64,000 nt of DNA, from NCBI GenBank assembly GCA_043806315.1, contig JAZDHF010000280.1, positions 2,972 to 66,971 of the forward strand, read 5' to 3'. This stretch comes from Planctomycetota bacterium. Lineage in GTDB: Bacteria > Planctomycetota > Phycisphaerae > UBA1845. A program made the position numbers and the translations under genes. The notes under the pieces were generated by a model, which was not told the DNA's origin, did not search any database, and saw only the letters and a list, made by a program, of their open reading frames with translations. This document shows positions 9,543 to 61,715 of the stretch, piece after piece. Positions within the stretch are counted from its first letter, which is position 1, and every line of letters starts with the position of its first letter.

Positions 9543-9621
9543 GTCATTCTGAGCGCAGCGAAGAATCTCCTTACGTGTCGAGATGCTTCGCTCCGAGATT
9601 CTTCGCTGCGCTCAGAATGAC
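9543..9621. repeat. Palindromic REP-like element (GTCATTCTGAGCGCAGCGAAGAATCTC arms)
   Basis: 27-bp arms at 9543-9569 and 9595-9621 are exact reverse complements. A related element lies at 12966-13030. Confidence 0.75.
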
Positions 9622-10296: not shown

Positions 10297-10416
10297 GAAG
10301 TTCAAAGTGCGAAGTTCAAAGTTCGAAGACGGGCTCCGCCTCTTGCGCGCCCGGCGAGAGCGTTGCGTCTCTTTGAACTTTGACTTTTGAACTTCGAACT
10401 TTGAACTTCGAACTTC
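10297..10416. repeat. Heptamer-armed hairpin element (GAAGTTC/CAAAGTT repeats), 3' of the pilin operon
   Basis: Left arm 10297-10328 and right arm 10371-10416 are imperfect reverse complements built of 7-nt repeats. Starts 4 nt after the stop at 10420. Confidence 0.8.
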
Positions 10417-10419
10417 CCT

Positions 10420-11991
10420 CTACGACGGCGAAATGCTCAACGTCGCGACCTCGATGTTGACGACGGGCGACGGACCGTCGAAGGTCGGCGTCTGCTCGCC
10501 GCCGGGTTGTGAACGGTCCACCGCCGGCGGGAAGACCCACACCGTCCGCAACAGCTCTTCGGGATCGGGGTCTTTGGTCCAATCGGTCTTCGTGCAGCTT
10601 TCGCAGCGCGAATCGCCGGCGGGGATCTCGATGTCTTCCTGGAGGATCTCGCGGTCGAGCGTCAGGATCGCTGACTCGTTGCCGTTCTGGTCGAGGAGGA
10701 TCCGGCGCTTGGCGACGCGGTAGACGTGCCCTTCGATCTCATCCACGAATGTCGTGCCGGACGGGAACATCGAGGCCAAACCGCCTGCCAGACTGCCTGT
10801 TACACCGTCAGGAGGAACGTGGATTTCCGTGGGCACGCCGGTCGGGACCTTCGCTGAGTCTGGGGGAGCGCTGCGATACGCGAGCGACCTGGGAAGCTGA
10901 ACCTGCACACGCCACCCGACGGGGAACATCACGTCGTTTTTCGACTCCATGGCCGCCGGCTCGACGGCCTGGACCGGGCGAACGAACGAGAACGGATTGG
11001 GGATTCGCGCCGGAGTGGGGTCCTGCCGCGCGTAGCGGTTGGTCGACTTGGAGCGCCGCAACGTGACATAGTACATGTCGAAGGTGCGCGTGCTCCCCAT
11101 CGCCGCCGCGGCCTCACGGACCAGTCTATCGGATTCCCCCGGCAGCACCGACGGGTCGAACGCAAGCGGCGCCGGACCGACGCGAGTGCGCAGGCGATGC
11201 AGCACCGCCCAACAAAATCGCCGCGTGGCCAGTTTCTCGTTCCATTGGTCCAGTTCCTGACCGGGCACCGCAGGGGGCGCGGCGATGGGCGGGTAAAGCC
11301 GCTCCCAGACCCGGACTTGCGGAGTGTAGAAAAGTCGATCGGGGAACGCCTCGCCCCGGTTGCGCTGGTTGACGGGATGCGGATAGTCGGTCTTCAAGAA
11401 CCGGCCTTGGACGATCTGCGTCACGGGAGGCGTCGGGAAACTCCCACCGGGGTCCTCCAAGTCCCACGGATTCTCGGGGACGGTGGCGACGACCTGGACC
11501 GTGCTGAGGAAGAGAATGTTCTCGACGTTCAGAGCGTGAACCGACGTGTCGGAGTAGGCGAGGATGGCCTTGTACCAATCGAGCCGTGGCGATGCCGGTC
11601 CCACTAACGTCGGATCGAAAAACATGTCGCCGGCCAGACTCCCCGTCGTCAATTGCGACTCCTCGAAGCACGGCGTCGGTGGAGGAGGGCAGACTTTCAC
11701 GAGACTATGTCCAGCCGGGCGAAGCAAGGCCGATAGCGTCGCATGGGCGCCGGAGGAGGCCGCTTGTTCGACGGTGTAGTCGCTGAGCGTTCGCGCCCGG
11801 TCCCAGGCGACGGGGAAAATCGTCGCCACCATCACCAATCCCAAACCGAGAATGACAATGGCGATCATCATCTCTACAAGGGAGAAGGCGCTGCGCGAAG
11901 CGAGAAGTGAGAAGTGAGAAGTGAGAAAGGGGATGAACCGACCTTCCTTCAGTCTTCTCACTTCTAACTTCAGTCTCCGTTTCTCGCTCAT
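10420..11991 (-). CDS. Large pseudopilin (prepilin-type N-terminal cleavage/methylation domain)
   Basis: 523 aa. SRSA|FSLVEMMIAIVILGLGLV class III signal after a 35-aa leader. Start overlaps the upstream stop (ATGA). Confidence 0.75.
   Translation of the reverse strand: MSEKRRLKLEVRRLKEGRFIPFLTSHFSLLASRSAFSLVEMMIAIVILGLGLVMVATIFPVAWDRARTLSDYTVEQAASSGAHATLSALLRPAGHSLVKVCPPPPTPCFEESQLTTGSLAGDMFFDPTLVGPASPRLDWYKAILAYSDTSVHALNVENILFLSTVQVVATVPENPWDLEDPGGSFPTPPVTQIVQGRFLKTDYPHPVNQRNRGEAFPDRLFYTPQVRVWERLYPPIAAPPAVPGQELDQWNEKLATRRFCWAVLHRLRTRVGPAPLAFDPSVLPGESDRLVREAAAAMGSTRTFDMYYVTLRRSKSTNRYARQDPTPARIPNPFSFVRPVQAVEPAAMESKNDVMFPVGWRVQVQLPRSLAYRSAPPDSAKVPTGVPTEIHVPPDGVTGSLAGGLASMFPSGTTFVDEIEGHVYRVAKRRILLDQNGNESAILTLDREILQEDIEIPAGDSRCESCTKTDWTKDPDPEELLRTVWVFPPAVDRSQPGGEQTPTFDGPSPVVNIEVATLSISPS
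11900..11987. repeat. Heptamer-armed hairpin element (GAGAAGT variant) inside a prepilin leader
   Basis: Arms at 11900-11930 and 11942-11987, imperfect. Translated as EKRRLKLEVRRLKEG...LTSHFSLLAS. Confidence 0.6.
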
Positions 11992-13082
11992 GGCGCTTTC
12001 GCGACCGCCTCACCGACCGGACCGCGGACGACGGCCCCGGTCAAACGATGGACGTAAAACGGCTGGGCCGCGTCCAGAAGGAACTGCCGCTTCTGCTCCG
12101 CCGTCCCCGCGTTGCTGAACAAGGATTCGTCGTACACCAACAGTCCGTCAACCGAGGGGAAATTGATGGCCACATCCCTGTTCCCCGCGTCGGTCACCAG
12201 AGAGTCAATCTTCTGCACGCCTTTGGGGTCAATGTTCAAGGTCACATTCGCTTGGTCATAGTATTTGGACACCTGCGCAGGTGGTGCACCGGGACCGCCG
12301 ACGGTCAACCCGGTCACGTCGCCACCGGGGCTTTTGTCCGGATCGGCGTCGAGGTCGCGGATCAACACGTCGCGCCGCACGCGCAACTGCCCACTGCTCG
12401 AGTAAATCATGGAAAAGAAGTTCCGATGCCGCTGGGCTTGATCGCGGTCCGGGGGGAGGGAAATCGTGAAGTCGTTGTTCTCCAACTCCTGCGGGCTGAA
12501 CGTCGCCGCTCTCACTTTGGCTGGATCGACACCGGTCCATTTCCGGTCGTTGGGATCCTCAACAACGTACCTCGGCACGACGCGCATAGGGACGGGCAGG
12601 GCGTAACTTCGTTCCGTCGTGACGTTGAAGACGTTGGCCCAGGCCTCGCGGGTGGCGGGATCGGCGGCCTTTTTCGCGTCCTGGATAATCGATACGATCC
12701 GTTGCACCCCGGCCTCATCGACGTAGAAAAACAGACCGCTGTCGCCGAAGTCGTTCTGCATGGCCCGGGCCCGGGTGGTCATCAACATGCCGCTGATAGT
12801 GTCCTGGGCCTCGGCGATGCGACGCTCCTTCCACATCGTGCTCGCGGCCGGGAGCACGATCCCCACGATCAGCAGGATGACGGCCACCACGATCACCATT
12901 TCGACCAACGTGAACGCAGAAGTTCGAAGTGCGAAGTTCGAAGTGCAAGAGAATGGGCGGCGGTTGTCACCCTGAGCGAAGCGAAGGGTCCAGCTCCAGA
13001 ACGAAGATGCTTCGCTTCGCTCAGCATGACGCTCGCCCGCCGCGCCTTTCTTGAACTTTGAACTTTGAACTTTGAACTTCAT
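11988..13082 (-). CDS. Pseudopilin with a 62-aa leader
   Basis: 364 aa. RTSA|FTLVEMVIVVAVILL. The only in-frame start upstream of the FTLVE motif is the ATG at 13082. Confidence 0.7.
   Translation of the reverse strand: MKFKVQSSKFKKGAAGERHAERSEASSFWSWTLRFAQGDNRRPFSCTSNFALRTSAFTLVEMVIVVAVILLIVGIVLPAASTMWKERRIAEAQDTISGMLMTTRARAMQNDFGDSGLFFYVDEAGVQRIVSIIQDAKKAADPATREAWANVFNVTTERSYALPVPMRVVPRYVVEDPNDRKWTGVDPAKVRAATFSPQELENNDFTISLPPDRDQAQRHRNFFSMIYSSSGQLRVRRDVLIRDLDADPDKSPGGDVTGLTVGGPGAPPAQVSKYYDQANVTLNIDPKGVQKIDSLVTDAGNRDVAINFPSVDGLLVYDESLFSNAGTAEQKRQFLLDAAQPFYVHRLTGAVVRGPVGEAVAKAP
12919..13080. repeat. Nested palindromic elements (outer heptamer arms, inner REP-like palindrome)
   Basis: Outer arms at 12919-12949 and 13050-13080. 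Inner arms at 12966-12986 and 13010-13030 (GTCACCCTGAGCGAAGCGAAG / CTTCGCTTCGCTCAGCATGAC). Confidence 0.8.
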
Positions 13083-14122
13083 TGCGGCTTGATTCCCTTG
13101 GCCAGTTTCTCCTTCAACGCCGGGTTGGAATAGACGTTGTCGTCGTTGTACGGTTCATTGATGATGTGGTCGTGGGCCGCGCCGCCGGAGAAGTCGTAAA
13201 CGAGCGACACCAACCCCGTCGCTCCCATCGCGTCCTTGGTGAGCTGGTCCTTTCCGTTGGGTCCGTAGGAGAAGATGACCGGCTGCCCGCCGTTGAGCCG
13301 GATGATCTCCGTCGAGGAGCGGTTCCATGTGTCGTGATTCCTCGAGGGGATCGGCATGAAACTGGGATTCACGGACGGGTCCTGCCAATCGCGCTCAGAG
13401 AAATAGCTAATCGGGTTGCCCCAGTCGTCGATGATTAACCGAATCTGGTGGTCGTTCGGATCCCAGGCTCCGGTTGCTCCTCCCGTACGGTCCAGGAACA
13501 GCGCCGGAGTGCCGTCGGCTTGCAGAGCGCCGACGGTGCGATTGCGGTCGGGGATGCGGTCAAGGATGGCGGAGCCCGACTCGCTCAAGGTCTCGATCGC
13601 CAGGATCATGGCCGCTTGGTCGCGGTTCTCCAGGGCATTCGCCGCTTGGTCCCCGTCTTTGTAGAAGCGCATGGCACCCCAGGAAGGCGTAGGCGCCGGC
13701 ACGATGACCGCGCCGCCAGCGGCGAGTGTTCGTACCGCTGGCGGCGGTCCGCTGCCCGGCAGCCCCGCGAGCGTGAACACCTCTAACTCATCCGGCGGGT
13801 AAGCCCCGTAACGGTCGGAATAATTCACGGTCAGGGGTGGAGGGACTAGTTTGGGTTGCCGGGCCCGGGTGATCGTGGGCTTGGCGGTTTGCTCGCGTTT
13901 GAATTCCTCGACCGCGTCCGCGACGATCTGCAGGACCGACTGCGTGTTGTTGCTGCGGCCCTTGTTGATGAAGCCGGAACTGGCCACCAGGATGGCGCTG
14001 ACCAGGATGCCGATGACGACGATGACGATGAGGAGCTCGACGAGGGTAAGCGCCCGCTGCGAGAACGAGGTTCGAAGTTCAAAGTTCAAAGTTCGAAAAC
14101 GAATACCCCATCTGCGCTGCAT
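13079..14122 (-). CDS. Pseudopilin (prepilin-type N-terminal domain)
   Basis: 347 aa. SQRA|LTLVELLIVIVVIGIL. Confidence 0.75.
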   Translation of the reverse strand: MQRRWGIRFRTLNFELRTSFSQRALTLVELLIVIVVIGILVSAILVASSGFINKGRSNNTQSVLQIVADAVEEFKREQTAKPTITRARQPKLVPPPLTVNYSDRYGAYPPDELEVFTLAGLPGSGPPPAVRTLAAGGAVIVPAPTPSWGAMRFYKDGDQAANALENRDQAAMILAIETLSESGSAILDRIPDRNRTVGALQADGTPALFLDRTGGATGAWDPNDHQIRLIIDDWGNPISYFSERDWQDPSVNPSFMPIPSRNHDTWNRSSTEIIRLNGGQPVIFSYGPNGKDQLTKDAMGATGLVSLVYDFSGGAAHDHIINEPYNDDNVYSNPALKEKLAKGIKPQ

Positions 14123-14156
14123 TGTCCTGACCTTTTGAACTTCGACCTTTGAACTT
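14067..14156. repeat. Heptamer-armed hairpin spanning the start codon of the 13079..14122 gene
   Basis: Arms at 14067-14099 (coding) and 14131-14156 (5' UTR), about 21/25 paired. The ATG (14120-14122) lies in the loop. Confidence 0.75.
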
Positions 14157-14164
14157 TAGGCTTT

Positions 14165-15301
14165 TCAGTCCGTCTTTCGCGTCCAGTTGAGTACGTCGTC
14201 GTCGGTGCCGTAACGGGCGTCGGGACCGGCGCTGATCAACAGATAGGCGTCCTTTTGCACCGGCGTGGGGCGGGCCTTCACCGAACCGTCGAGGATGAAG
14301 CGTGCGAAGGTGTGCTTGTAATCGTCCCCCTGAGAGGCGACGTCTACGACCTTCACCGAGGGGTCCGGCGATTTGGCGCCATGAATCCAATGCTGTTGCC
14401 CATGTTCATCGGTGCTGGCGCCGAAATCGAGACCCTTGACCTCACCCAACAGGCCTTCCGCGCTGCCCGTGATAATCGCGTTGTCCTCTTGCCAGTAGAT
14501 GCCCGGCTTGCCCGAGGCGCCCGTCATCCGCAGGGCGGTTGGGTTGGCCTTGTAATACAGGATCGGATGGTCCCAGGGGTCGGTGAAGACGCGCTGGCCG
14601 CTGGCGATCTTGGGCGAACCACCCTCCAGCGCAGCCAAGTTGAGGATCGTCCCTTTGTCGGCCAGTTCTTGCAAAGTCTTGGCGCTCTCCTTCATCTTCT
14701 CGTCGACGTACCCGGCCCCGCCGTAACGCGGGAACTTCTCCTTGCCCGTAGCGGGGTCAACGGCGTAGATGCCCGATTTCCCAGTCGCCGCGTCGTATTT
14801 CTTGTGCGTGTCGTGCGACCAAAGTCCTTTGGCCTCGGGGGTCACGTCGCGGAACCCCGGCGTACCCAAGCCGTCCGCTCCGATCATCGCGTGAACGAGC
14901 AGATGTGCGCCGGCGATTCGGACCTTCGTGTTTGGATCTTCGCCCTGCGGATCGGCGATCGTCTGGCGGTCGGTTGGAGGATCCGTGTCATCCCCGGCGG
15001 ACGGCGGCAGGGTCCCGCCCAAGGCCGCCTCGGCGCGAAAGGCGTTGATGCCGGTGTCCAGAGCCTTGAACTGGGCGCTGGCCTGAGCGAGTTTCGCCTG
15101 ACCCCTCACCGCCGAAAACGCGGGCAACAGCGCCGCGAGCAGCAGAGCGATGATCGCGACCACCACCATCATCTCCACTAAAGTGAACGCGCGAACCGGA
15201 AGTTCGAAGTTAGAAGTTCGAAGTTCGAAGACCGAAGGGCGTCGCCTCCGAGCCCGGTCGTGTATCTTTGAACTTTGAACTTTGAACTTTGAACTTTTCA
15301 T
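14165..15301 (-). CDS. GspG-like pseudopilin with large central insert
   Basis: PVRA|FTLVEMMVVVAIIALLL. C-terminal LLISAGPDARYGTDDDVLNW resembles the GspG C-terminus. ATG at 15301 chosen, 5 nt after the upstream stop. Confidence 0.75.
   Translation of the reverse strand: MKSSKFKVQSSKIHDRARRRRPSVFELRTSNFELPVRAFTLVEMMVVVAIIALLLAALLPAFSAVRGQAKLAQASAQFKALDTGINAFRAEAALGGTLPPSAGDDTDPPTDRQTIADPQGEDPNTKVRIAGAHLLVHAMIGADGLGTPGFRDVTPEAKGLWSHDTHKKYDAATGKSGIYAVDPATGKEKFPRYGGAGYVDEKMKESAKTLQELADKGTILNLAALEGGSPKIASGQRVFTDPWDHPILYYKANPTALRMTGASGKPGIYWQEDNAIITGSAEGLLGEVKGLDFGASTDEHGQQHWIHGAKSPDPSVKVVDVASQGDDYKHTFARFILDGSVKARPTPVQKDAYLLISAGPDARYGTDDDVLNWTRKTD
15198..15298. repeat. Heptamer-armed hairpin element inside a prepilin leader
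   Basis: Arms at 15198-15230 (GAAGTTC repeats) and 15266-15298 (CTTTGAA repeats). Translated as KSSKFKVQSSK...VFELRTSNFEL. Confidence 0.8.
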
Positions 15302-15305
15302 CTGA

Positions 15306-16436
15306 TTACTCCGTCCACGGCGGAAGGTTGGAGACATCGTCACTCGTACCGTAGCGCCCGTCGACGCCGGCGCTGATCAGCAGATACCCGTCCGCGTTCA
15401 CCGCCCGGAGCGGCATGGTCGGCTTGGCGTCGGTCGGGTGGGCCGCGTAGGCGCTGTAGATCTTGCGGTCGATGATATATCGAGCGAAGTTTTCGCGATG
15501 CTCGATGAGCTCCTGCTTTTCCGCAGTCACCATGTCCACCGCCGTTTCCTTCGCCCCGGACAGCGCGATGGTATGTTTGGCTCCCGTGTTGCCGAAATCC
15601 CAGCCACGCTCCGTATCCGCGTTCCCTTTCCCGGTGAAGGGGATGTTGTCCTGATGGAAGTACATCGGGGGGCCCTTCTCCTGGTCCCCACCGTCGTAGT
15701 TGTTGTCCACCTTTCGGACGTCCTCGACCATGTTCGATTCCCGGCCGTGGGCGTTGGCCGCGTAATAGAGGATCGGTTGATCGAACGCATCGACGACGAC
15801 CGGAAGGTTCTGCACGCCTTGGGGGTCGTTGTCGTCTGAGGTCCAGCCCGTACCAAACAGTGCTCGATTCGGCCGCCCGGGCAAGTCCTTCGTCTTTTTC
15901 ACCGCCAGCCCGTTCGTATCCGCGTACGGTCCGCCGCGAGGCTGCAACACCTGCCCCGGCCCGAGCGGATCCGGCGTATACCACTTCCACGGCAGCTTCT
16001 GCAGGTCGTCCTTGTTCGGTACAATACTGCGTTTGATGTACCCCAACTGATCGACCCCCATCAGCATCGCCGGCAACCAGTGCGCGCCGGTGACGACCGG
16101 CTTCTTCTCCAGGAATGGAAACTCCCCTAGGAGCGACTGAAAGACTGGTGGATTGCCAATCGGCGGATGGGCGAACGAAGGCGGATAGCCGTTGGTCCGC
16201 GGGAAGTCCGGCCCGTTGTCGTTCTTGAACATTTCCAGCCCGACCTTGATGGAGTCGAGGGCCTTCTTGGTCGTCATCTTTTTCGCTGCGTTGCGCGCGG
16301 CGCTCAATGACGGGACCAGAATCCCAATGAGCAGGGTGATGATGAAGATCACGGTCAGCAACTCCACGAGCGAGAAGCCTCGCCGCCGCGAATGCGGAAT
16401 GGTGAATTCGGAATGTCGAAATTCAAAATTGAGCAT
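15306..16436 (-). CDS. GspG-like pseudopilin with large central insert
   Basis: RRRG|FSLVELLTVIFIITLLIGILVP (canonical Gly at -1). C-terminal LLISAGVDGRYGTSDDVSN. Confidence 0.8.
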   Translation of the reverse strand: MLNFEFRHSEFTIPHSRRRGFSLVELLTVIFIITLLIGILVPSLSAARNAAKKMTTKKALDSIKVGLEMFKNDNGPDFPRTNGYPPSFAHPPIGNPPVFQSLLGEFPFLEKKPVVTGAHWLPAMLMGVDQLGYIKRSIVPNKDDLQKLPWKWYTPDPLGPGQVLQPRGGPYADTNGLAVKKTKDLPGRPNRALFGTGWTSDDNDPQGVQNLPVVVDAFDQPILYYAANAHGRESNMVEDVRKVDNNYDGGDQEKGPPMYFHQDNIPFTGKGNADTERGWDFGNTGAKHTIALSGAKETAVDMVTAEKQELIEHRENFARYIIDRKIYSAYAAHPTDAKPTMPLRAVNADGYLLISAGVDGRYGTSDDVSNLPPWTE

Positions 16437-31327: not shown

Positions 31328-34300
31328 CAAGAATCAGGAAGAGCAATGGCGGCGCGCCGACGATGAGGTGCGGAAGAATCTGCCGCCGGGCGTGAAGCTC
31401 GTCCGTACACTGCGCGGGCACACGGACTGGATTGGGCGGATCGCGTGGTCGCCCGACGGGCGGCTTATCGCATCGCCCTCGATGGACATGTCCATTCGCC
31501 TCTGGGACGCGGAAAACGGCAAGGAAACCCGCCGATTCGAAGGGCACCAGCACGGGGTCAATAGCGTCGTTTTCAGCCCGGACGGGGCACGACTGGCCAG
31601 CGGAAGCTACGACAATACCGTGTGCCTCTGGGACGTGGGAACCGGCGAGGAACTCCGCCGATTCAAAGGGTACGAGCACAGCGTCAATGGCGTCGTCTTC
31701 AGCCCCGACGGGGCGCGACTGGCCAGCGGAAGCGACGACAACACCGTGCGGGTGTGGGACGTGGGAACCGGCAAGGAATTCCGCCGATTCGGAGGGCACC
31801 AGGGCTGGGTCAGTAGCGTCGTATTCAGCCCCGACGGGGCACGACTGACCAGCGGGGGCGGCGACAACACCGTGCGGCTGTGGGACGTGAGAACCGGCAA
31901 GAAACTCCGCCGATTCGAAGGGCACCAGGAATGGGTCCCTAGCGTCGTATTCAGCCCGGATGGGGCACGACTGGCCAGCGGAAGCGACGACAACACCGTG
32001 CGGCTGTGGGACGTGGGAACCGGCAAGTTGCTTCGCACGCTGGAAGGACACACGGACTCCGTGATTTGCGTTGCGTTCCTCTCCGATGGGCGGCTCCTGG
32101 CTTCGAAGAGCAGTGATCACACCGTCCGTCTGTGGAGCGTCGATCCCGGCGCGTGCGTGGCGGTGATCCCCGAGCCCACCTCACGCTACCTTTGGCCACC
32201 CGGTCTCGCCTTCAATCCTCGCCTTCCGAGGCTCGCCACGGTCGGTTCCGATCCGGGCGCGCCCGCGGACAACCCGGGATCAACAGAGACACTCCGCGAC
32301 TGCGTCATCCACATCTGGCAACTGGACCTCGCCGTCCTACTCGGCCAAGTGGCTGAGCCAAGCGCCCACTACGTCAACGCCAAGGTGGTTTTGGTGGGCG
32401 ACACCGGCGTGGGTAAAACCGGGCTGAGCCTCGTGCTGAACCACCAGCCCTATAGGGAGACCGACTCCACGGCGGGGCGGCATGTCTGGACGTTCGATTC
32501 ACGGGAGGTCCCCGTCGGGCTCAATGTCGCGCAGACACGCGAGACGTTGTTGTGGGATTTGGCCGGACAGCCGGGCTATCGAGTCATCCACCAGTTGCAC
32601 CTCAACGAAGTGGCCGTCGCCCTCGTGGTGTTCGACGCCCGCAGTGAGACCGATCCGCTCGCCGGCGTCCGGCACTGGGAGCGCGCCTTGCGCTTGGCGC
32701 AGCAGCGGCAGGGGACTTCGGGCGTCCCCATGAAGAAGTTCCTGGTCTCCGCCCGCAACGATCGCGGCGGCGTCTCCATCGGCGAGGAACGAGTTAAGAC
32801 GATCCTCGATGAATTCGGGTTCGACGGCTATTTCAAGACCAGCGCCAAGGAAGGCTGGCAGGTCAAGGAACTGCGGGCGGCCATCGAGAAGGCGATCGAG
32901 TGGGAAACGCTCCCGGAGGTTTCGTCCTCGCAATTGTTCGCCGACATCAAGTCGTTCCTGCTAGAGGTGAAGAAGACGGGCCGGCTCTTGGCGCCGGCGA
33001 GCCAGCTTTACGACGACTTCGCCCGTCAGCATCCCGACACGGCGGCGAAAACGGCGAACCTTCGTGACCAGTTCGAGACCTGCACCGGGCGGCTGGAAAA
33101 CCGCGACCTGATCCGCCGCCTCACCTTCGGCGGCTATGTGCTCCTCCAGCCGGAGTTGCTGGACGCCTACGGCTCCGCGATGGTCAACACGGCCAGGGAA
33201 GAGCCGGACGGGCTCGGTTCCATCGCCGAAGAAATCGCCCTGACCGGCAAGTTCTTCGTACCCAAGGAGCAGAACATCAAGGATCCCGGCCAGGAGCAGT
33301 TGCTGTTGCACGCCACCGTGGAGGAACTGGTCCGGCACGACCTGGCCCTGCGCGAGAACGCGGATGACGGGCGCTACCTCGTCTTTCCATCGCAGTTCAA
33401 CCGCGACTACGAAGACGCGCCCGAACCCAAAGGCAAGGCGGCCGCGCTGACCTTCGAGGGCCCGGTCCAGAGCCTTTATGCAACGCTCGCGGTGCGGCTG
33501 GGTCACAGCGGCTTGTTCACTACCGGGCGGGCGGAGATGTGGCGCAACGCGGCCATCTTCACCGCCACGGCGGGCGGCAAGTGCGGGCTTTTCCTACACG
33601 AATTCGCCGAGGCCCGCGGGCGTTTGATCCTCTTCTTCGATGACCACGCCAGCAGCGAGACGCGGTTCCACTTCGAGGAATTCGTCCTGGCCCATGCCCG
33701 TCGCCGTGCGCTGGACGGGACCGTGGAACTCGTGCGGTTTTTCATGTGTCCCGACTGCGCTGACCCGGTGCCCGATAGCTACGTGAAGCGGCTTAGGGAT
33801 AAAGGAACGATGGCGTTCAACTGTCCCTGCGGAGGGACGGTGTCGCTGGTCGAGCCGAAGGAGCGCATTCGCTTCCCGTCGCAAGTCGAGGCCATGGACA
33901 AATCCGCCGACCGGCAGCGGGATTTCGATGCGTTCGTCATGTCGGCCAAAGGCGAGACGAGCACCAAGGACTTTCACGAATGGGCCGGAGGCGAGCGGGT
34001 TACGCTGGCGATCGTGTTCACCGACGTGATCGGCTCGACGGCGCTGAGCGAAGAAATCCGGGAAGAGGCCATGAACGAAGTGCGGCGGGCGCACTTTGTC
34101 CAGAGCCGCAAGTTGCTGGCGCAGTTCAAAGGCCGGGAAATCAAGACCATAGGCGACAGCTTCATGGCCGCGTTCAAGGCCGTGGACGCGGCCCTGGATT
34201 ACGCGATTGCCTTGCAGGTCAGCACCGGCGATCCGCACGTGCAGATCCGCGCCGGCATCCATATCGGCCCGATGCAGGTGGAGGAAGGCGACGTGTTCGG

Positions 34301-35123: not shown

Positions 35124-35215
35124 CGGTTGGGCTTCGAGTGCGTCCTGAGCCCCCCTCACCCTGCCCTCGGACCCTCCCTCCTCGGTCGGGTCGTCCGACC
35201 CCCCAGGGGGGGAGA

Positions 35216-35471
35216 GGGGGACGTGGTCCGGGGATCGTTGATCCCAGGACTGAAGGTCCTGGGCTAAGTTCGAGCGTCCCAAGCCGGACTCGCGCCCCCC
35301 CCAAGGGGTGGCGCTACGGGCCCCGCGCGGGCGAGGGGGGTGCGGGGGCGGTGGTCGGGGGACCGTTGACCCCAGGAGTGAAGGTCCGGGGCTATGTCCG
35401 CGCGTCCCCCGCCGGCCTCGCCCCACCCCGCTGGGGTGGCGCTACTGGCCCCGCGCTGGCGATTGGGGTTC
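35216..35471. repeat. GC-rich REP-like hairpin cluster, two tandem units of about 120-128 bp
   Basis: Unit 1 is about 35216-35333 and unit 2 about 35334-35462. Each holds a CCCAGGAnTGAAGGTCCnGGG hairpin. The 25-bp tail GGCCCCGCGCnGGCGATTGGGGTTC recurs at 34763-34787. Confidence 0.6.
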
Positions 35472-35477
35472 GGAGGA

Positions 35478-54874: not shown

Positions 54875-57800
54875 CTATCGCACGTTGAAGTACTTCGCAT
54901 GTCGGTGGTGGGTGATGAGGGCGGTGGTGGTCTGCTCGGGTTCGAGTTGGAACTCCTCGGAGAGCGTGACGCCGATGCGGCCCGGTTCCAGCAGCGGCCA
55001 GAGCTTTAGTTGATCTTCCAGTCGCGGGCAGGCGGGGTAGCCGAAGCTGTACCGCGAGCCCTGGTAGCGCTGTTTGAAGATTTCCTGCCGCTGCCGGGCG
55101 TCGTGTCCGGCGATGCCCCATTCCACGCGGATTTGCTTGTGAATGTATTCGGCCAATGCTTCCGCTGATTCCACGCCTAGTCCGTGAAGATGCAGGTAGT
55201 CCTGATAACGATCCTGCGCGAACCATTCCCGTGCCACCGCGCTGACACGCCGCCCCGCGGTGACGACGCTGAACGCGGCCACGTCGTAGACGCCGCTGGA
55301 GACCGGCTTGAAGAAGTCGCTCAAGCACCAGTACGGCGGCTTGCCCATGCGCGGAAACTCAAAGACGCTCAATTGCCGATCGCGGTCGTCGGGGTCATAG
55401 ACAATCAGGGCGTCGCCGTCGGACTGCATGGGCCAGAAGCCATAGACGGCCTGTAATTGCAGAATGTTCTCCCGCTCACACTGTTCCAACAGTCGCCGCA
55501 AGATTGGTCGGACCTCGTCATTGATGTAGCGTTTGAAATCCTCCGGACTGCGGCGGTGCTTGCGATACTGCCATTGCACCTGGAAGAGCATGTTCTCGTT
55601 CAAATAGGCAAGGGCCGCGCGGGCGTCGATTCGCTCCACCACCCGCCGACCCCAGAAGGGCGGCTGCGGGACAGGTTCGTCGCGGGAGATATCCGATCGC
55701 GGCGGGATGTAGCCGAAACGTTCGGAGGCTTCCTCGTGGAGATCGGCCCCGAAGTTCGAAGTTCGAAGTTCGAAGTTCGAAGAAAGGGGGACTGCTGCCG
55801 GCGAGTTGTCTTTGAACTTCGACCTTTGAACTTTGACCTTCTCATGGGGTTCGAAGGGGCCCGCGACGATCTGGTCCATCAAATGCAGACCCGCGAAGGC
55901 ATCCTTGGCATAGAACAGTGAACCACTGTATTCGGGCCGAAGGTCCTGCTCGACGTACTTTCGCGTCAGGGCGGCCCCGCCGAGGATGACCGGGGGGTCG
56001 AGTCCCCGCTCATTCAAGACCGCGAGATTCTCACGCATCACGACGGTGGACTTGACCAGCAGCCCGGACATGCCGATGGCGTCGGCGTTGTTTTTCTCAT
56101 AGGCCTCGATGATGTTGTTGATCGGCTGCTTGATGCCCAGGTTGAAAACCGTATATCCGTTGTTGGTCAGAATGATATCGACGAGGTTCTTGCCGATGTC
56201 GTGAACGTCGCCGCGGACGGTGGCGAGCACGATCGACCCCTTGCCGCCTTGGTCGGCCTTGTCGAGGTGCGGTTCGAGGAAGCGGACGGCGGCCTTCATC
56301 GTCTCCGCCGATTGCAGCACGAAAGGCAACTGCATCTGCCCCGCCCCGAACAGGTCGCCGACGGTCTTCATCCCGTCGAGCAGAATATCGTTGATGATGT
56401 CGAGAGGGCGATGGGTCAGCATGGCCTCTTCGAGGTCTTCATCCAGACCGACGCGGTCGCCGTTGATGATCCGCAGCTTCAGATGATCCTCGACGTTTTT
56501 GGGTTTCTCCGTCTCCGCCGCAGCCGCCGTTTCGACGTTCTCGAATGCTCTCAGTAGTTCCTGCAGCGGGTCATAGCCGTCGCGGCGGCGATCGAAGATC
56601 AAATCCTCGGCGAAGCGGCGATGTTCTTCGTCGATCTTGAATAACGGCACGATTCGGGAGACGTGCAGGATGGCTGCGTCCAGACCGCGCTCGCGGGCGT
56701 GGTGCAAAAAGACGCTGTTGAGCACGCGCCTCGCGGGGGCCTTAATCCCGAAGCTGATGTTGCTCAGACCCAGCAGAGTGTGCACGCCGGGGCATTCATC
56801 CTTGATCGCAGCGATCGCGTCCAAGGTTTCCAAGCCGAGACGCCGGTCATCCTCGTTGCCCGTGCAGATGGTGAAGGTGAGGGGGTCGAAAATCAGGTCG
56901 CCGGCGCGAATGCCGTGGCGGTTGGTCACCAGATCGAAAATGCGTTTGGCGACTTCGACCTTTCGCCCGCACGTCTTGGCCATTCCCTGCTCGTCGATGG
57001 TGAGGGCGATGAGTGCCGCGCCGTGACGCTTGGCCAGACGGCAGACCTTGTCCAGCCGATCCTCGCCGTCTTCGAGGTTGATGGAGTTGATGACGCATTT
57101 GCCGCCGGCGAGCTTGAGGGAGGCCTCGAGCACCGGCACTTCCGTGCTGTCGATGACCAGCGGCGCGGTGACGTCGGTGACGAAGCGCCTGAGCACCGCG
57201 GTCATGTCCGCGACCTCGTCGCGTCCGACGTAGGCCGCACAGACGTCGAGCAGGTGGCTGCCGTATTTCACCTGCTCGCGGCCCATCTGCACCATGCCGT
57301 CCACGTCCCCGGCGGCCAGCAGTTCACGGAACCGCTTCGACCCGTTGGCGTTGGTTCGCTCGCCGATGGCCAGCACTTCGCCGTCTTGTCGCAAGGTCAC
57401 GGCCTGGTAGAGACTGCTCACCGACGGTTCGAGCTTGGCACGGCGGGGCCTGGGCGCTCGTGACCCGACGGCGTCAACGACGGCGGCCAAGTGCGCCGGC
57501 GTCGTCCCGCAGCAGCCGCCGACGATGTTCACCCCGTCCACCTCAATGAACTCGACCAGCCACCGGGTCAGCTCCGCGGGCGTGAGGGCGTAGTAGGGTT
57601 TCCCGTTGACGAGCTGCGGCAGGCCGGCGTTGGGCTGGACGATGAGCAGTCGATCGCTGTGTCCGCTGAGGTAGCGGACGTGTTCGCTCATCTCCTGCGG
57701 CCCGGTCGCGCAGTTCAGACCGATGCCGACGACCTCGTCGTAGGCCGCGATCGCGGTCAACGCCGCAGCGATCTCCGTGCCCAGGAGCATCGTTCCGGTC

Positions 57801-58384
57801 GTTTCGATCGTGACCGTGCAGAGGATCGGAACCTGCCGACCCTTCTCGGTCATCGCGTCGATACAAGCGACGATGGCCGACTTGCATTGCAGCAAGTCCT
57901 GACACGTTTCGAGGAGCAGGGCATCGACCCCGCCGTCGAGCAGTCCTCGCCCTTGCTCGGTATAGCTGTCGAGGATTTCGTCCCAGGTCGTCTGCCCGAG
58001 CGACGGCACCCGCGTGCCGGGCCCCATTGAACCGATGACGAAGCGCGGACGGTCGGGCTTGTCGAACTCTCGGACGGCGTCGCGGGCGATTTCCGCGGCC
58101 TTTTTGTTGATCTCGTAGGTGCGCTCGGCGATTCCGAAATCCGAGAAGACGATCTTGTTGGCCCCGAAGGTGTTGGTCATCACCGCGTCGCAGCCGACGG
58201 AAAGGAACGATCGGTGAATGTCGCGCACGACGTCGGGCCGGGTGGCCGTCACGATGTCCACACAGTTCTCGTGGCCTTCGTAGTCGCTCAGGGGCAACTC
58301 GCGCGCATGGATGCTCGTCCCCATGGCCCCGTCGAGGACGAGCACCCGCTCCCGAAGGGCCTGGATGAATGGTGATTCGGTCAT
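54875..58384 (-). CDS. metH: Cobalamin-dependent methionine synthase
   Basis: 1169 aa from MTESPFIQAL. Hcy and pterin barrels, B12 motif GDVHDIGKN and a C-terminal AdoMet-activation domain. Confidence 0.9.
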   Translation of the reverse strand: MTESPFIQALRERVLVLDGAMGTSIHARELPLSDYEGHENCVDIVTATRPDVVRDIHRSFLSVGCDAVMTNTFGANKIVFSDFGIAERTYEINKKAAEIARDAVREFDKPDRPRFVIGSMGPGTRVPSLGQTTWDEILDSYTEQGRGLLDGGVDALLLETCQDLLQCKSAIVACIDAMTEKGRQVPILCTVTIETTGTMLLGTEIAAALTAIAAYDEVVGIGLNCATGPQEMSEHVRYLSGHSDRLLIVQPNAGLPQLVNGKPYYALTPAELTRWLVEFIEVDGVNIVGGCCGTTPAHLAAVVDAVGSRAPRPRRAKLEPSVSSLYQAVTLRQDGEVLAIGERTNANGSKRFRELLAAGDVDGMVQMGREQVKYGSHLLDVCAAYVGRDEVADMTAVLRRFVTDVTAPLVIDSTEVPVLEASLKLAGGKCVINSINLEDGEDRLDKVCRLAKRHGAALIALTIDEQGMAKTCGRKVEVAKRIFDLVTNRHGIRAGDLIFDPLTFTICTGNEDDRRLGLETLDAIAAIKDECPGVHTLLGLSNISFGIKAPARRVLNSVFLHHARERGLDAAILHVSRIVPLFKIDEEHRRFAEDLIFDRRRDGYDPLQELLRAFENVETAAAAETEKPKNVEDHLKLRIINGDRVGLDEDLEEAMLTHRPLDIINDILLDGMKTVGDLFGAGQMQLPFVLQSAETMKAAVRFLEPHLDKADQGGKGSIVLATVRGDVHDIGKNLVDIILTNNGYTVFNLGIKQPINNIIEAYEKNNADAIGMSGLLVKSTVVMRENLAVLNERGLDPPVILGGAALTRKYVEQDLRPEYSGSLFYAKDAFAGLHLMDQIVAGPFEPHEKVKVQRSKFKDNSPAAVPLSSNFELRTSNFGADLHEEASERFGYIPPRSDISRDEPVPQPPFWGRRVVERIDARAALAYLNENMLFQVQWQYRKHRRSPEDFKRYINDEVRPILRRLLEQCERENILQLQAVYGFWPMQSDGDALIVYDPDDRDRQLSVFEFPRMGKPPYWCLSDFFKPVSSGVYDVAAFSVVTAGRRVSAVAREWFAQDRYQDYLHLHGLGVESAEALAEYIHKQIRVEWGIAGHDARQRQEIFKQRYQGSRYSFGYPACPRLEDQLKLWPLLEPGRIGVTLSEEFQLEPEQTTTALITHHRHAKYFNVR
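55751..55841. repeat. Heptamer-armed hairpin element in frame inside metH
   Basis: Arms at 55751-55782 ((GAAGTTC)x4) and 55810-55841. Translated as KVKVQRSKFKDNSPAAVPLSSNFELRTSNF in the linker between the B12 and activation domains. Confidence 0.8.
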
Positions 58385-58474
58385 ATTGGGTGCCACTGGC
58401 GGCTCGTCCGCCAGTGCGGTCGCACGGCGCAACATCGAGCGACCGTAGCGTTCATCGCCCGCCCGAGGCGAGTC

Positions 58475-58662
58475 GCCCCGGAGGGGCGGTCGACCGTAGC
58501 CCACGACTTCAGTCGTGGGACCAGGGACGACGCTCGATCTTTCCCCCTCCCCCATCCCGCCGCCGGCGGCGGCGGGGAAGGGGGAGGGGGTTCTCTTTTC
58601 AGACGCGCCGGTTCCCAGGGCCGAAGGCCCTGGACTACGTTCGCCACGCCCCTAACGGGGCG
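58475..58662. repeat. Cluster of GC-rich hairpins in the metH / zinc-ribbon-gene divergent region
   Basis: Hairpins at 58500-58519, 58543-58590 (about 20-bp stem), 58615-58633 and 58647-58662. Confidence 0.5.
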
Positions 58663-60561: not shown

Positions 60562-60590
60562 TCGAGTCCGTGCGGAATCCATCCGCTCCC

Positions 60591-61598
60591 TCACGGTCGC
60601 GGCTCGGATCGTCCGCTCGCTTGCGCTTGCGGCTCTGATGACTGGCGCGACTTCGTAGGTGCATCGCGCGCCGGCATCGCCGCTCCGATCACACCCGCGT
60701 CGTCGCCGAGGCGCGAGGGATGCACGGTTACACGCCGCGTGAAGTCGTCGTCGCGGGAGCGAAGGTGGATCGCGGTTTGTTCGACCAAACAGGGCAACGC
60801 GGTAATCACTCCGCCGCCGAGGCAGACGAGAACCGCAAACGGATCGGTTCCATCAGAGCCGCGACCGTGAGGGAGCGGGCAATCTTGGATTTGAGATTTG
60901 AGATTGCAGATGCCCGAGACCAGGGCGTCGGCGACCCGAGCCACAATGACCCGAGCGGCGGGTTCGCATCGTCCCCAGGCCGATTGCAGACCCGCCAAGC
61001 CATCCTCGTACGCCATCGTCGCGGCCTGTCGCTCCAACGCCGGGCCTGAGGCGATCGTTTCCAGACATCCTCGGAGGCCGCACGGACACGGCGCGGCCTC
61101 GGGTCCGTCGTCAACAGCCAGAACTTCCCAATGCGTCCTCCGATCGATGCCCGTCGATTGGAATCTGCCGTCGACGACGATCCCGCAGGCGACGCCGGTG
61201 CCGAGACGAAGATGCACGAAGGCCCCCGGTCGTGGTGTGCAAGCGGAGTACTCACCCCAAGTGGCCGCGTCGGCGTCGGACATCAGCGCAACCGGAAGCC
61301 CGATACGGTTTGCCAGTTCTTCGCGGATCGGACGACTTTCCAAGAAAGGAAGGTTCACCGAACGGACGAGCACCCCGCGCTCACGATCGACAATCCCCGG
61401 GAGGGCCAAGCCGACGGCGCTCGTAGGCCCACTCTCGGATTCCGACCGAATCCGCTGGATTTCCAGGGCGATCCAATCAAAAAGTTCGTCACCGCTGCGG
61501 GGGGTCGGCGCTCGTCGAGGGGAGAGAATCCGGCCGTCCGGATCAAGCGCGGCCACGCGAATCTGCGTGCCTCCGACGTCGATGCCGATGGTGAACAT
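60591..61598 (-). CDS. ROK-family sugar kinase
   Basis: MFTIGIDVGGTQIRVA and the ROK zinc motif CPCGLRGCLE. ATG at 61598 is preferred over the TTG at 61613, which lies in a repeat. Confidence 0.8.
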   Translation of the reverse strand: MFTIGIDVGGTQIRVAALDPDGRILSPRRAPTPRSGDELFDWIALEIQRIRSESESGPTSAVGLALPGIVDRERGVLVRSVNLPFLESRPIREELANRIGLPVALMSDADAATWGEYSACTPRPGAFVHLRLGTGVACGIVVDGRFQSTGIDRRTHWEVLAVDDGPEAAPCPCGLRGCLETIASGPALERQAATMAYEDGLAGLQSAWGRCEPAARVIVARVADALVSGICNLKSQIQDCPLPHGRGSDGTDPFAVLVCLGGGVITALPCLVEQTAIHLRSRDDDFTRRVTVHPSRLGDDAGVIGAAMPARDAPTKSRQSSEPQAQASGRSEPRP

Positions 61599-61603
61599 AA
61601 GAT

Positions 61604-61715
61604 CGAAGTTCAAAGTTCGAAGTTCAAAAAGGGACGGCTATTTCTCTGGAAGTTGAGTCGCCGCGCGCCGCAACGTCTACATTCTTCGAACTTTGAACTT
61701 TCAACTTTGAACTTC
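61604..61715. repeat. Heptamer-armed hairpin element at the GHL10/ROK junction
   Basis: Arms at 61604-61632 and 61684-61715. Confidence 0.8.

What the first reader, a model, noticed from the sequence alone, without database searches (positions are those of the whole stretch)
55751..55841. In-frame insertion of a heptamer-hairpin element inside metH
Seen: a typical element, (GAAGTTC)x4 - spacer - CTTTGAACTTCGACCTTTGAACTTTGACCTTC, lies within the intact 1169-aa metH ORF. It adds about 30 residues (KVKVQRSKFKDNSPAAVPLSSNFELRTSNF) exactly between the cobalamin-binding domain and the AdoMet-activation domain.

Established: Rickettsia palindromic elements are the known precedent for repeat insertions that remain in frame in conserved genes.

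Inference: the hairpin family is or was mobile and is tolerated in a flexible interdomain linker of a conserved enzyme.
Basis: partly seen in the sequence, partly recalled or inferred. Interest (0 to 1): 0.6.

Follow-up and report, generated by a model that had tools for sequence, protein, structure and literature searches.

The report
Heptamer hairpin repeat inside metH linker
A 93-base hairpin built from 7-base repeats sits in frame in the floppy linker between two domains of an otherwise intact methionine synthase gene; it is real, but most likely a tolerated passenger at a spot where several small repeat families keep replacing one another.

Summary
Window 55751-55841 is (GAAGTTC)x4.7, a 25-nt loop, then (GAACTTY-like)x4.4, with 33-nt arms 85% complementary. 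With two flanking bases it is exactly 31 codons (E848-F878) of an intact 1169-aa metH on the minus strand. It lies between the B12-binding and activation domains, in the linker that is disordered in solved MetH structures and has pLDDT about 33 in my model.

Five more copies plus one variant lie in the window, all co-oriented with their genes. At least two are read through as pilin-like leader peptides.

It is not a simple +30-aa insertion. In this Planctomycetota clade the linker is a hypervariable cassette. Relatives about 94% identical in flanking DNA carry other palindromic repeats there. More distant relatives carry the same heptamer hairpin in the same codon phase with unrelated loops.

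No target duplications, no shared loop and no base-pair covariation were found, so it does not meet MITE or RPE criteria. It belongs with the heptameric repeat arrays known from many bacteria.

Unexpectedly, (RAAGTTC)n arrays lie in frame in at least 22 conserved genes across many phyla.

Verdict: real, probably passive; a new variant of a known kind.

The parts
54875..58384 (-). metH coding sequence (1169 aa plus stop); intact, with five Pfam domains
55809..55843 (-). Arm that is 5' on the mRNA: GAG AAG GTC AAA GTT CAA AGG TCG AAG TTC AAA GA. It encodes EKVKVQRSKFK(D). These are RAAGTTC-type units.
55784..55808 (-). 25-nt loop encoding (D)NSPAAVP(L). It is unrelated to the loops of all other copies.
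55751..55783 (-). Arm that is 3' on the mRNA: (GAACTTC)x4.7, encoding (L)SSNFELRTSNF. All units are C-type, so there is no TGA in any sense frame.
55745..55865 (-). Variable linker cassette. Nucleotide homology to relatives stops at 55744 on one side and at 55859-55875 on the other.
10297..10416 (-). Family copy just 3' of the last pilin-like gene (stop at 10420). It has stops in two of the three sense frames.
12919..13080 (-). Family copy with a second, unrelated hairpin nested in its loop. The only in-frame start before the FTLVE motif is ATG 13082, so the whole hairpin would be read as a leader peptide.
14067..14157 (-). Family copy overlapping the 5' end of pilin-like gene 13079..14122. 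Candidate starts lie in the loop (ATG 14122) or in the arm (TTG 14089).
15199..15297 (-). Family copy. The last possible in-frame start, ATG 15301, abuts it, so it would be read as a 38-aa leader of gene 14165..15343.
61598..61715 (-). Family copy filling the spacer between the GHL10 gene (stop at 61714) and the ROK gene. The arm ends directly at the likely ROK ATG.
11897..11975 (-). Variant hairpin with GAAGTGA units, at the 5' end of pilin-like gene 10420..11991.

Best explanation
The 93 bases are one copy of a dispersed repeat family whose members are two inverted arrays of the heptamer RAAGTTC (about 4-5 units per arm) around an arbitrary loop. This copy lies in the sense orientation inside the Cob:Act linker (Linker IV) of MetH and is simply translated, adding 31 disordered residues.

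It is tolerated for two reasons. First, the linker is an unstructured tether whose sequence and length are free in this clade. Second, the family is translatable by construction. A 7-nt unit puts the same seven codons in all three frames, and (RAAGTTC)n and (GAACTTC)n contain no stop codon. Only GAACTTT units give TGA.

I infer no function for metH. In this clade the linker is a dumping ground where at least three repeat families (the heptamer hairpin, a GC-rich 'EPRASARA' hairpin and a 'CGTDFPVGPRDRLESLS' element) replace one another over short evolutionary distances.

How the arms arise and are kept is inference, not shown. I favour DNA-level processes typical of heptameric simple-sequence arrays: slippage within arms, and copying or conversion between arms and between copies. 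I do not favour cut-and-paste transposition of a defined unit.

Shown: anatomy, reading frame, disorder, family membership and cassette turnover. Inferred: that it is actually translated, that it is neutral, and how it originated.
For: Anatomy, frame and intact gene.

Disorder: model residues 217-251, which are the element-coded stretch, have pLDDT 33-35 and are coil between confident domains. The Cob:Act linker lacks electron density in the crystal structure (PMC10567725). PDB alignments split exactly here.

Stops: there are none in any of the three sense frames of the element.

Family: six hairpins plus a variant in 64 kb, all co-oriented with their genes. Two sit in pilin-like leader regions where the only or last usable start codon lies outside the hairpin.

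Cassette turnover: linker sequences of 120 homologues and a tree with heptamer, E-type and C-type linkers interspersed. L176 and L121 are 91-97% identical to the window in the flanking 100-nt windows right up to the cassette, yet hold unrelated inserts. The E-type hairpin is itself dispersed, with 30 hits in 22 related loci.

No structural selection: 82.1% of cells paired against 82.1 +/- 0.6 in shuffles, with one compensatory pair.

Generality: of 130 (RAAGTTC)>=3 arrays in other phyla, 31 lie in long ORFs, 30 of them in the stop-free orientation. At least 22 are inside Pfam-confirmed conserved genes, often at interdomain positions.
Against: Among five or six lineages that carry the hairpin in metH, the arms are 85% identical and their third codon positions 75-81% identical. 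Third positions of the flanking conserved codons are only 56-59% identical, and loops 51%. Codons ending in A or T (GTT, CAA, AGT, TCA), which I take to be disfavoured in a 63% G+C genome, are retained in the arms.

All metH copies share one codon phase and the same boundaries. In those relatives the +/-10 kb flanks contain almost no other copies.

A purely passive, decaying passenger would not predict this. Some force (conversion, site-specific re-creation, or selection) acts on the arms.

Translation of the segment is inferred from the intact frame only. No complete genome was available to measure copy number.
Confidence: 0.72

Rival explanations
1. RPE/MITE-like mobile unit: the hairpin is a non-autonomous transposable element that a transposase inserted as a whole, repeatedly and independently, into the metH linker of different lineages.
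For: The family is multi-copy. Presence differs between close relatives, both in metH (WIN and L158 against L176 and L121) and upstream of ROK (WIN has a full hairpin, L158 one arm, L126, L176 and L177 none). Relatives without the metH copy show no family copies in more than 100 kb of flanks.
Against: Loops of all copies are unrelated in sequence and length, from 25 to about 105 nt. I saw no target-site duplication by eye. The arms are plain tandem heptamers, not defined terminal repeats. The identical codon phase and boundaries in at least six lineages would be improbable for independent random insertions (about (1/3)^5, my inference). No transposase was sought or found.
Confidence: 0.15
2. 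Selected nucleic-acid element: the hairpin is kept in metH because it works at RNA or DNA level. It could pause ribosomes between the Cob and Act domains, or act as a processing or regulatory site like the copies that sit on start codons of other genes.
For: The arms are more conserved than synonymous sites and keep A/T-ending codons across lineages with saturated synonymous divergence. Other copies abut or cover start codons. The position at a domain boundary would suit co-translational pausing (inference).
Against: There is no covariation. The mRNA-strand hairpin is the weaker one, -31 against -45 kcal/mol, z only -1.95. The nearest relatives lack it and carry unrelated sequence. There is no terminator or promoter signature at the site and no Rfam match.
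Confidence: 0.08
3. Selected peptide: the encoded KFKVQSSKFK ... SSNFELRTSN pair, two amphipathic strands from a palindrome, is a useful linker module, and it is the protein sequence that is conserved.
For: The peptide motif recurs at the same place in about ten MetH orthologues.
Against: The model gives no structure, with pLDDT 33-35. Conservation is at the nucleotide level, including third positions with A/T-ending codons. The same peptides appear in dozens of unrelated proteins wherever the DNA array lands. Close relatives do without it.
Confidence: 0.03
4. Purely local origin or artefact: the two arrays arose by slippage at this spot with no relation to the other copies, or they are an assembly error.
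For: Heptameric simple-sequence arrays are over-represented in bacteria and have been attributed to polymerase slippage (PMC4692102).
Against: The same heptamer and the same architecture occur at six places in the window. The identical element is present in an independent assembly, L158. The conserved reading frame continues across it.
Confidence: 0.02

Closest known systems
Heptameric tandem-repeat arrays of bacteria: cyanobacterial STRR (own knowledge), TAACTGA repeats of Beggiatoaceae, cyanobacteria and Bacteroidetes (PMC4679880), GGGAATC and GGGGAYT repeats of Xanthomonas and Nostoc (PMC4692102)
   Same: The unit is 7 nt and the short arrays are dispersed through the genome. They lie mostly at gene boundaries, often ending at or within a few nt of a start codon. 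One orientation is stop-free and is the one found inside ORFs. Occasional inverted pairs are reported, and length and sequence change quickly between relatives.
   Different: Here the standard form is a pair of inverted arrays making a stem of about 30 bp around an arbitrary loop. The unit is RAAGTTC, for which I found no paper. Copies sit inside conserved enzymes, whereas the reported intragenic TAACTGA repeats lie mostly in hypothetical proteins or at protein ends.
Rickettsia palindromic elements (RPE)
   Same: A palindromic repeat present in frame in conserved protein genes, translated, and located where the fold tolerates extra residues (own knowledge; RPE reviews listed).
   Different: RPEs are families of about 100-150 bp with conserved full-length sequence. 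Here only the tandem-heptamer arms are shared and the centre is arbitrary. The host is a Planctomycetota lineage, and there is no sequence relationship.
REP/BIME and REPIN elements
   Same: Dispersed hairpin-forming repeats packed between co-directional genes, with two inverted halves around a spacer (PMC3116915 and PMC3733652, listed).
   Different: REPs are single 20-40-bp imperfect palindromes with conserved tetranucleotide tags, are extragenic by definition, and are linked to RAYT transposases. None of this is seen, or was tested, here.
Bacterial MITEs found intragenically (Correia, ERIC, Nezha and others)
   Same: Small non-coding repeats that can be read through in frame (PMC2229807 and PMC10969869, listed).
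   Different: MITEs have defined terminal inverted repeats, a conserved interior and target-site duplications. The copies here share neither an interior nor duplications.

Membership tests
Heptameric simple-sequence repeat arrays (STRR / TAACTGA / GGGAATC type) | Head-to-tail copies of a 7-nt unit | tested here: met
   TRF gives period 7, 4.7 and 4.4 copies, at 100% and 79% matches.
Heptameric simple-sequence repeat arrays (STRR / TAACTGA / GGGAATC type) | Many dispersed arrays of the same unit in one genome, mostly at gene boundaries | tested here: met
   Six hairpins in 64 kb. Five are at gene ends or in spacers and one is in metH.
Heptameric simple-sequence repeat arrays (STRR / TAACTGA / GGGAATC type) | Rapid change of copy number or presence between close relatives | tested here: inconclusive
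   The ROK-upstream copy has lost or never had one arm in L158 and is absent in L126, L176 and L177. The metH copy has the same unit number in WIN and L158.
Rickettsia palindromic elements | Copies share a conserved full-length consensus of about 100-150 bp | tested here: not met
   Loops are unrelated: 51% identity in alignment, no better than chance. Only the heptamer arms are shared.
Rickettsia palindromic elements | In-frame presence in conserved protein genes at structurally tolerant sites | tested here: met
   31 codons in the disordered Cob:Act linker.
MITE | Target-site duplication flanking each copy | tested here: not met
   I saw no direct repeat flanking any of the six copies when reading the sequences. 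This was by eye, not by a formal scan.
MITE | Defined terminal inverted repeats plus a conserved interior derived from a parent transposon | tested here: not met
   The arms are tandem heptamers of variable number, and the interiors are unrelated.
REP / REPIN | Association with a RAYT (Y1 transposase) gene in the genome | not tested
   Only a 64-kb window and short contigs were available, and its ORFs were not scanned for Y1 transposases.
REP / REPIN | Strictly extragenic location | tested here: not met
   The copy is inside metH, and other copies lie in leader-coding regions.
Structured RNA element (any Rfam family) | Match to a curated covariance model, or covariation supporting the helix | tested here: not met
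   No Rfam hit at the element. Pairing equals the shuffled controls, with one compensatory pair.

The most novel reading that the evidence does not exclude
Inverted arrays of RAAGTTC heptamers, and single arrays of the same unit, are a cross-phylum class of DNA element made or spread by a sequence-specific process not yet described. That process deposits stop-free 7-nt arrays into genomes, including into essential genes, where they are translated as KFKVQSS / NFELRTS peptides. Examples are MetH, LeuRS, IleRS, TrpE, IspG, AroA, TsaD, MurC, UvrA, RecJ and NuoCD. The elements would then be a general, unrecognised source of new linker and loop sequence in bacterial proteins. The metH linker copy, with its conserved phase and arms, would be a maintained target rather than an accident.
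Probability: 0.25. Interest if true: 0.75.

Novelty: new variant of a known kind. Interest (0 to 1): 0.5.

Why it matters
It shows concretely how non-coding repeat DNA becomes protein sequence. An essential multi-domain enzyme carries a linker that is largely built from whichever palindromic repeat family last occupied it.

The heptamer design, with the same seven codons in all frames and no stops, explains why this family can enter genes.

The same arrays are in frame in at least 22 conserved genes of many phyla. The phenomenon is therefore broader than one gene, and I found no paper describing this unit. It gives a tractable system for two questions: what creates and homogenises heptameric arrays, open since they were found over-represented in bacteria, and how much interdomain linker diversity comes from repeats.

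There is also a practical consequence. Such segments inflate apparent protein divergence, and the stop-free arrays let mechanically called ORFs run through them.

Tried and rejected
1. Loop as resident sequence. By eye, the WIN loop resembled the linker of the repeat-free sister L121 (DSP..AAV), and the L177 loop resembled L129. A local-alignment test against shuffled loops gave scores reached in 21-76% of shuffles, and the cross-controls scored as well. Rejected as unsupported.

2. RNA structure under selection. There is no covariation.

3. Imported recombination tract. In 100-nt windows, identity of WIN to L176 and L121 stays at 0.91-0.97 up to the cassette, and identity to heptamer-bearing lineages does not rise. 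No tract is detectable, though a patch of a few tens of nt cannot be excluded.

4. Terminator or promoter role. There is none at the element.

5. Rfam. The only hit is an unrelated Acido-Lenti-1 upstream of metH. The C-type insert of relatives is not that motif.

6. Strand of function from G.U against A.C pairs. The + strand (antisense) is more stable in 4 of 6 copies. This is explained more simply by the absence of TGA-creating GAACTTT units in the translated arm.

7. A strict period-7 array finder missed most copies. It was replaced by a consensus-based scan.

8. Literature searches for the unit and for the encoded peptides returned nothing.

Full report
THE OBSERVATION

Tandem Repeats Finder reports two period-7 arrays. 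The repeat scan reports 33-nt arms, 85% complementary, 25 nt apart. The 14-mer GAAGTTCGAAGTTC, with at most one mismatch, occurs 18 times in the window against 0.03 expected.

The + strand folds at -45.5 kcal/mol (z = -4.5). The minus strand, which is the mRNA, folds at -31.2 kcal/mol (z = -1.95).

The element lies in a minus-strand ORF. From MTESPF at 58384 this ORF is a 1169-aa MetH with all five Pfam domains. Its best database relatives are 92% identical, and several of the listed homologues are named methionine synthase of Planctomycetota or Phycisphaerae MAGs.

Window 55843-55751 is exactly 31 codons, E848-F878, EKVKVQRSKFKDNSPAAVPLSSNFELRTSNF.

An independent assembly of a relative with about 93% nt identity (L158) has the same element with one substitution.

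WHERE IT SITS IN THE PROTEIN

Pfam places B12-binding at residues 717-831 and the activation domain from about residue 915 (best match 963-1168, starting at profile position 45).

Against Thermus MetH chains (8SSC, 8SSD), the match splits into two pieces. Query residues 238-266 of the C-terminal fragment are unmatched between adjacent chain residues.

An AlphaFold2 model of the C-terminal 541 residues, built with 41 homologues, gives pLDDT 33-35 and coil for fragment residues 217-251. That stretch is the element-coded segment, and confident domains flank it.

In the full-length Thermus filiformis structure, the Cob:Act linker (Linker IV, Glu877-Ala897) could not be modelled for lack of density (PMC10567725).

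THE FAMILY IN THE WINDOW

Six hairpins share the architecture: RAAGTTC units, an arbitrary loop, then GAACTTY units. They lie at 10297-10416, 12919-13080, 14067-14157, 15199-15297, 55751-55841 and 61598-61715. A GAAGTGA variant lies at 11897-11975. Loops range from 25 to about 105 nt and are unrelated. One loop holds a nested hairpin of another family.

All copies have the same orientation relative to their minus-strand genes.

Four copies, together with the variant, lie in a row of pilin-like genes that carry an N-methyl / FTLVE motif. For gene 11988..13082 the only in-frame ATG/GTG/TTG before the motif is ATG 13082. For gene 14165..15343 the last one is ATG 15301. Both abut the hairpin, so the whole hairpin would be read as a 56-aa or 38-aa leader.

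The 61598 copy fills the GHL10-ROK spacer and ends at the likely ROK start codon.

WHY THE FAMILY CAN BE TRANSLATED

Seven is not a multiple of three, so an array presents the same seven codons in every frame. This follows directly from the sequence.
- RAAGTTC gives K/E-F-K-V-Q-S-S.
- GAACTTC gives N-F-E-L-R-T-S.
- Neither contains a stop codon.
- GAACTTT units create TGA.

The metH copy has no stop in any of the three sense frames, while the antisense strand has stops in two frames.

The translated copies carry C-type units in the mRNA 3' arm and A-rich units in the 5' arm. On the mRNA this gives A.C mismatches, and on the antisense strand G.U pairs. That explains the strand asymmetry of folding energy without invoking an antisense function.

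THE LINKER IN RELATIVES

Between the anchors DAFxGL and PPFWG, 120 homologues have 57-131 residues, against 85 here. The sequence between the anchors is hypervariable.

Peptides of heptamer type occupy the same place in P0002, P0011, P0014, P0015, P0016, P0018 and P0024. P0019 and P0023 have partial versions. DNA confirms this for L156, L130, L132, L133, L177 and L178.

Other relatives carry other elements:
- A short GC-rich hairpin, GAGCCGCGGGCTTCAGCCCGCGCG (EPRASARA), which is itself dispersed, with 30 hits in 22 related loci.
- A CGTDFPVGPRDRLESLS element.
- Unrelated sequence of similar length.

On a MetH tree built without the linker, these linker types are interspersed. L176 and L121 are 0.91-0.97 identical to the window in every 100-nt flank window right up to the cassette, yet they hold unrelated inserts. 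They share '...QRGAVV-DLHEE' with the more distant L124 and L122. Nucleotide homology to relatives breaks at 55744 and at 55859-55875.

The element is therefore one allele of a cassette that turns over quickly. It is a net addition only against distant MetH, about 29 residues against Thermus.

ORIGIN OF THE ELEMENT

Evidence against transposition of a defined unit:
- The loops are unrelated.
- I saw no flanking duplication by eye.
- The arms are plain tandem repeats.

Evidence against simple decay of a passive passenger:
- Among five or six heptamer-bearing lineages the arms are 85% identical and the loops 51%.
- Third codon positions are 75-81% identical in the arms, against 56-59% in 1.3 kb of conserved flanks.
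- The A/T-ending codons GTT, CAA, AGT and TCA are kept.
- All metH copies share one codon phase and the same boundaries. Stop-codon avoidance does not force this.
- In those relatives the +/-10 kb flanks hold almost no other family copies.

Evidence against selection on the helix: 82.1% of cells are paired, against 82.1 +/- 0.6 in shuffles, with a single compensatory pair.

Two histories remain, and I could not separate them:
- An old metH allele whose arms are kept close to the family consensus at DNA level, plus exchange of the cassette between lineages.
- Repeated site-specific re-creation of the hairpin.

No imported tract is visible at 100-nt resolution. An apparent similarity between loops and the linkers of repeat-free sisters is not significant.

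BEYOND THIS LINEAGE

They come from Acidobacteriota, Verrucomicrobiota, Bacteroidota, Cyanobacteria, Desulfobacterota, Chloroflexota, CPR and other phyla.

Many of the arrays are hairpins of two inverted arrays with unrelated loops, and many neighbour arrays of other heptamers.

Of 130 arrays, 31 lie in ORFs that are open for at least 80 codons on both sides, and 30 of these are in the KFKVQSS orientation.

Pfam shows that at least 22 are inside bona fide conserved genes, with domain matches spanning or flanking the array. They are LeuRS (three), IleRS, TrpE, IspG, AroA, TsaD, MurC, PGK, NuoJ, a NuoC-NuoD fusion, UvrA, AddB, RecJ, TtcA, TilS, MenD, a GH2 enzyme, a peptidase M16, a SpoIIE phosphatase and a kinase-WD40 protein. 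Several arrays sit at interdomain positions.

The metH case is thus one instance of a wider pattern.

WHAT IS KNOWN

Heptameric repeats are over-represented among bacterial simple-sequence repeats, and polymerase slippage has been proposed as the cause. GGGAATC arrays in Xanthomonas include inverted pairs and change quickly between relatives (PMC4692102).

TAACTGA arrays in Beggiatoaceae, cyanobacteria and Bacteroidetes mostly end a few nt before start codons. They give stops in all frames in one orientation. They occur inside ORFs only in the other orientation, mostly at protein ends or in hypothetical proteins (PMC4679880).

RPEs are the classical in-frame palindromic repeats (own knowledge).

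I found no paper containing this unit or its encoded peptides.

The element fits the heptameric-array class. It fails the defining tests for RPE, MITE and REP.

VERDICT

The finding is real. The best reading is a tolerated, translated repeat in a disordered linker that acts as a repeat hot spot (confidence about 0.7).

It is a new variant of a known kind. Interest is moderate, and is raised by two things: the unexplained nucleotide-level conservation of the arms, and the cross-phylum in-frame arrays.

Noticed in passing
L001-L120 (e.g. L003 leuS, L032 trpE, L043 ispG, L064 aroA, L096 tsaD, L109 murC, L099 ileS, L060 uvrA, L083 recJ, L088 nuoCD): (RAAGTTC)n arrays, some as full hairpins, lie in frame inside at least 22 Pfam-confirmed conserved genes of many phyla. 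All 22 are in the stop-free KFKVQSS orientation, and several sit between domains.
   Followed up: partly
window 10420-16436 (minus strand): This is a row of five pilin-like genes with the N-methyl / FTLVE motif. Their leader-coding 5' ends are occupied by heptamer hairpins. In two genes the only usable start codon abuts the outer base of the hairpin, implying leaders of 38-56 aa encoded by the repeat.
   Followed up: partly
window 58474-58519 (-); also L177 8904-8949 and 8753-8798, L176 7532-7577, L178 9946-9991: The Rfam motif Acido-Lenti-1 (46.9 bits against a gathering score of 37) lies about 90 nt upstream of the metH start. More copies occur at other intergenic sites in relatives, so it behaves like a dispersed small element in this clade.
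   Followed up: partly
window 12972-13024 and 9549-9615; L123 4651-4800; L177 7120-7175: A second hairpin family, CTGAGCGAAGCGAAG ... CTTCGCTTCGCTCAG, occurs once nested in the loop of a heptamer hairpin. It also occurs upstream of ROK in relatives that lack the heptamers there.
   Followed up: partly
MetH linkers of L121, L122, L124, L127, L131 and others; 30 hits in 22 related loci: A short GC-rich hairpin, GAGCCGCGGGCTTCAGCCCGCGCG, is read as EPRASARA and, on the other arm, as ARTEVRGS. It is dispersed in related genomes and is also translated in the MetH linker. The ROK C-terminal tail in the window (SEPQAQASGRSEPRP, near the 30-nt tandem repeat at 60582-60639) looks related.
   Followed up: partly
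window 61598-61715 against L158 4363-4477, L126 4850-4900, L176 7500-7666: The GHL10-ROK spacer holds a full heptamer hairpin in the window. A relative with 93% nt identity has only the start-codon-proximal arm. More distant relatives have no heptamers, but other repeats or a short spacer instead.
   Followed up: yes
all copies (unit RAAGTTC): The unit contains GTTCRAA, which matches the tRNA T-loop consensus including the R position (own knowledge), and the palindrome TTCGAA. This is probably coincidence.
   Followed up: no
window 31503-32027 and 35207-35477: There are long tandem repeats of 126 nt (4.2 copies, apparently WD40-type coding repeats) and of 128 nt (2.1 copies).
   Followed up: no
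window 55457-55921 (+): A mechanical 154-aa ORF runs antisense to metH through the element. It is most likely spurious, but it shows how these arrays can extend false ORF calls.
   Followed up: no
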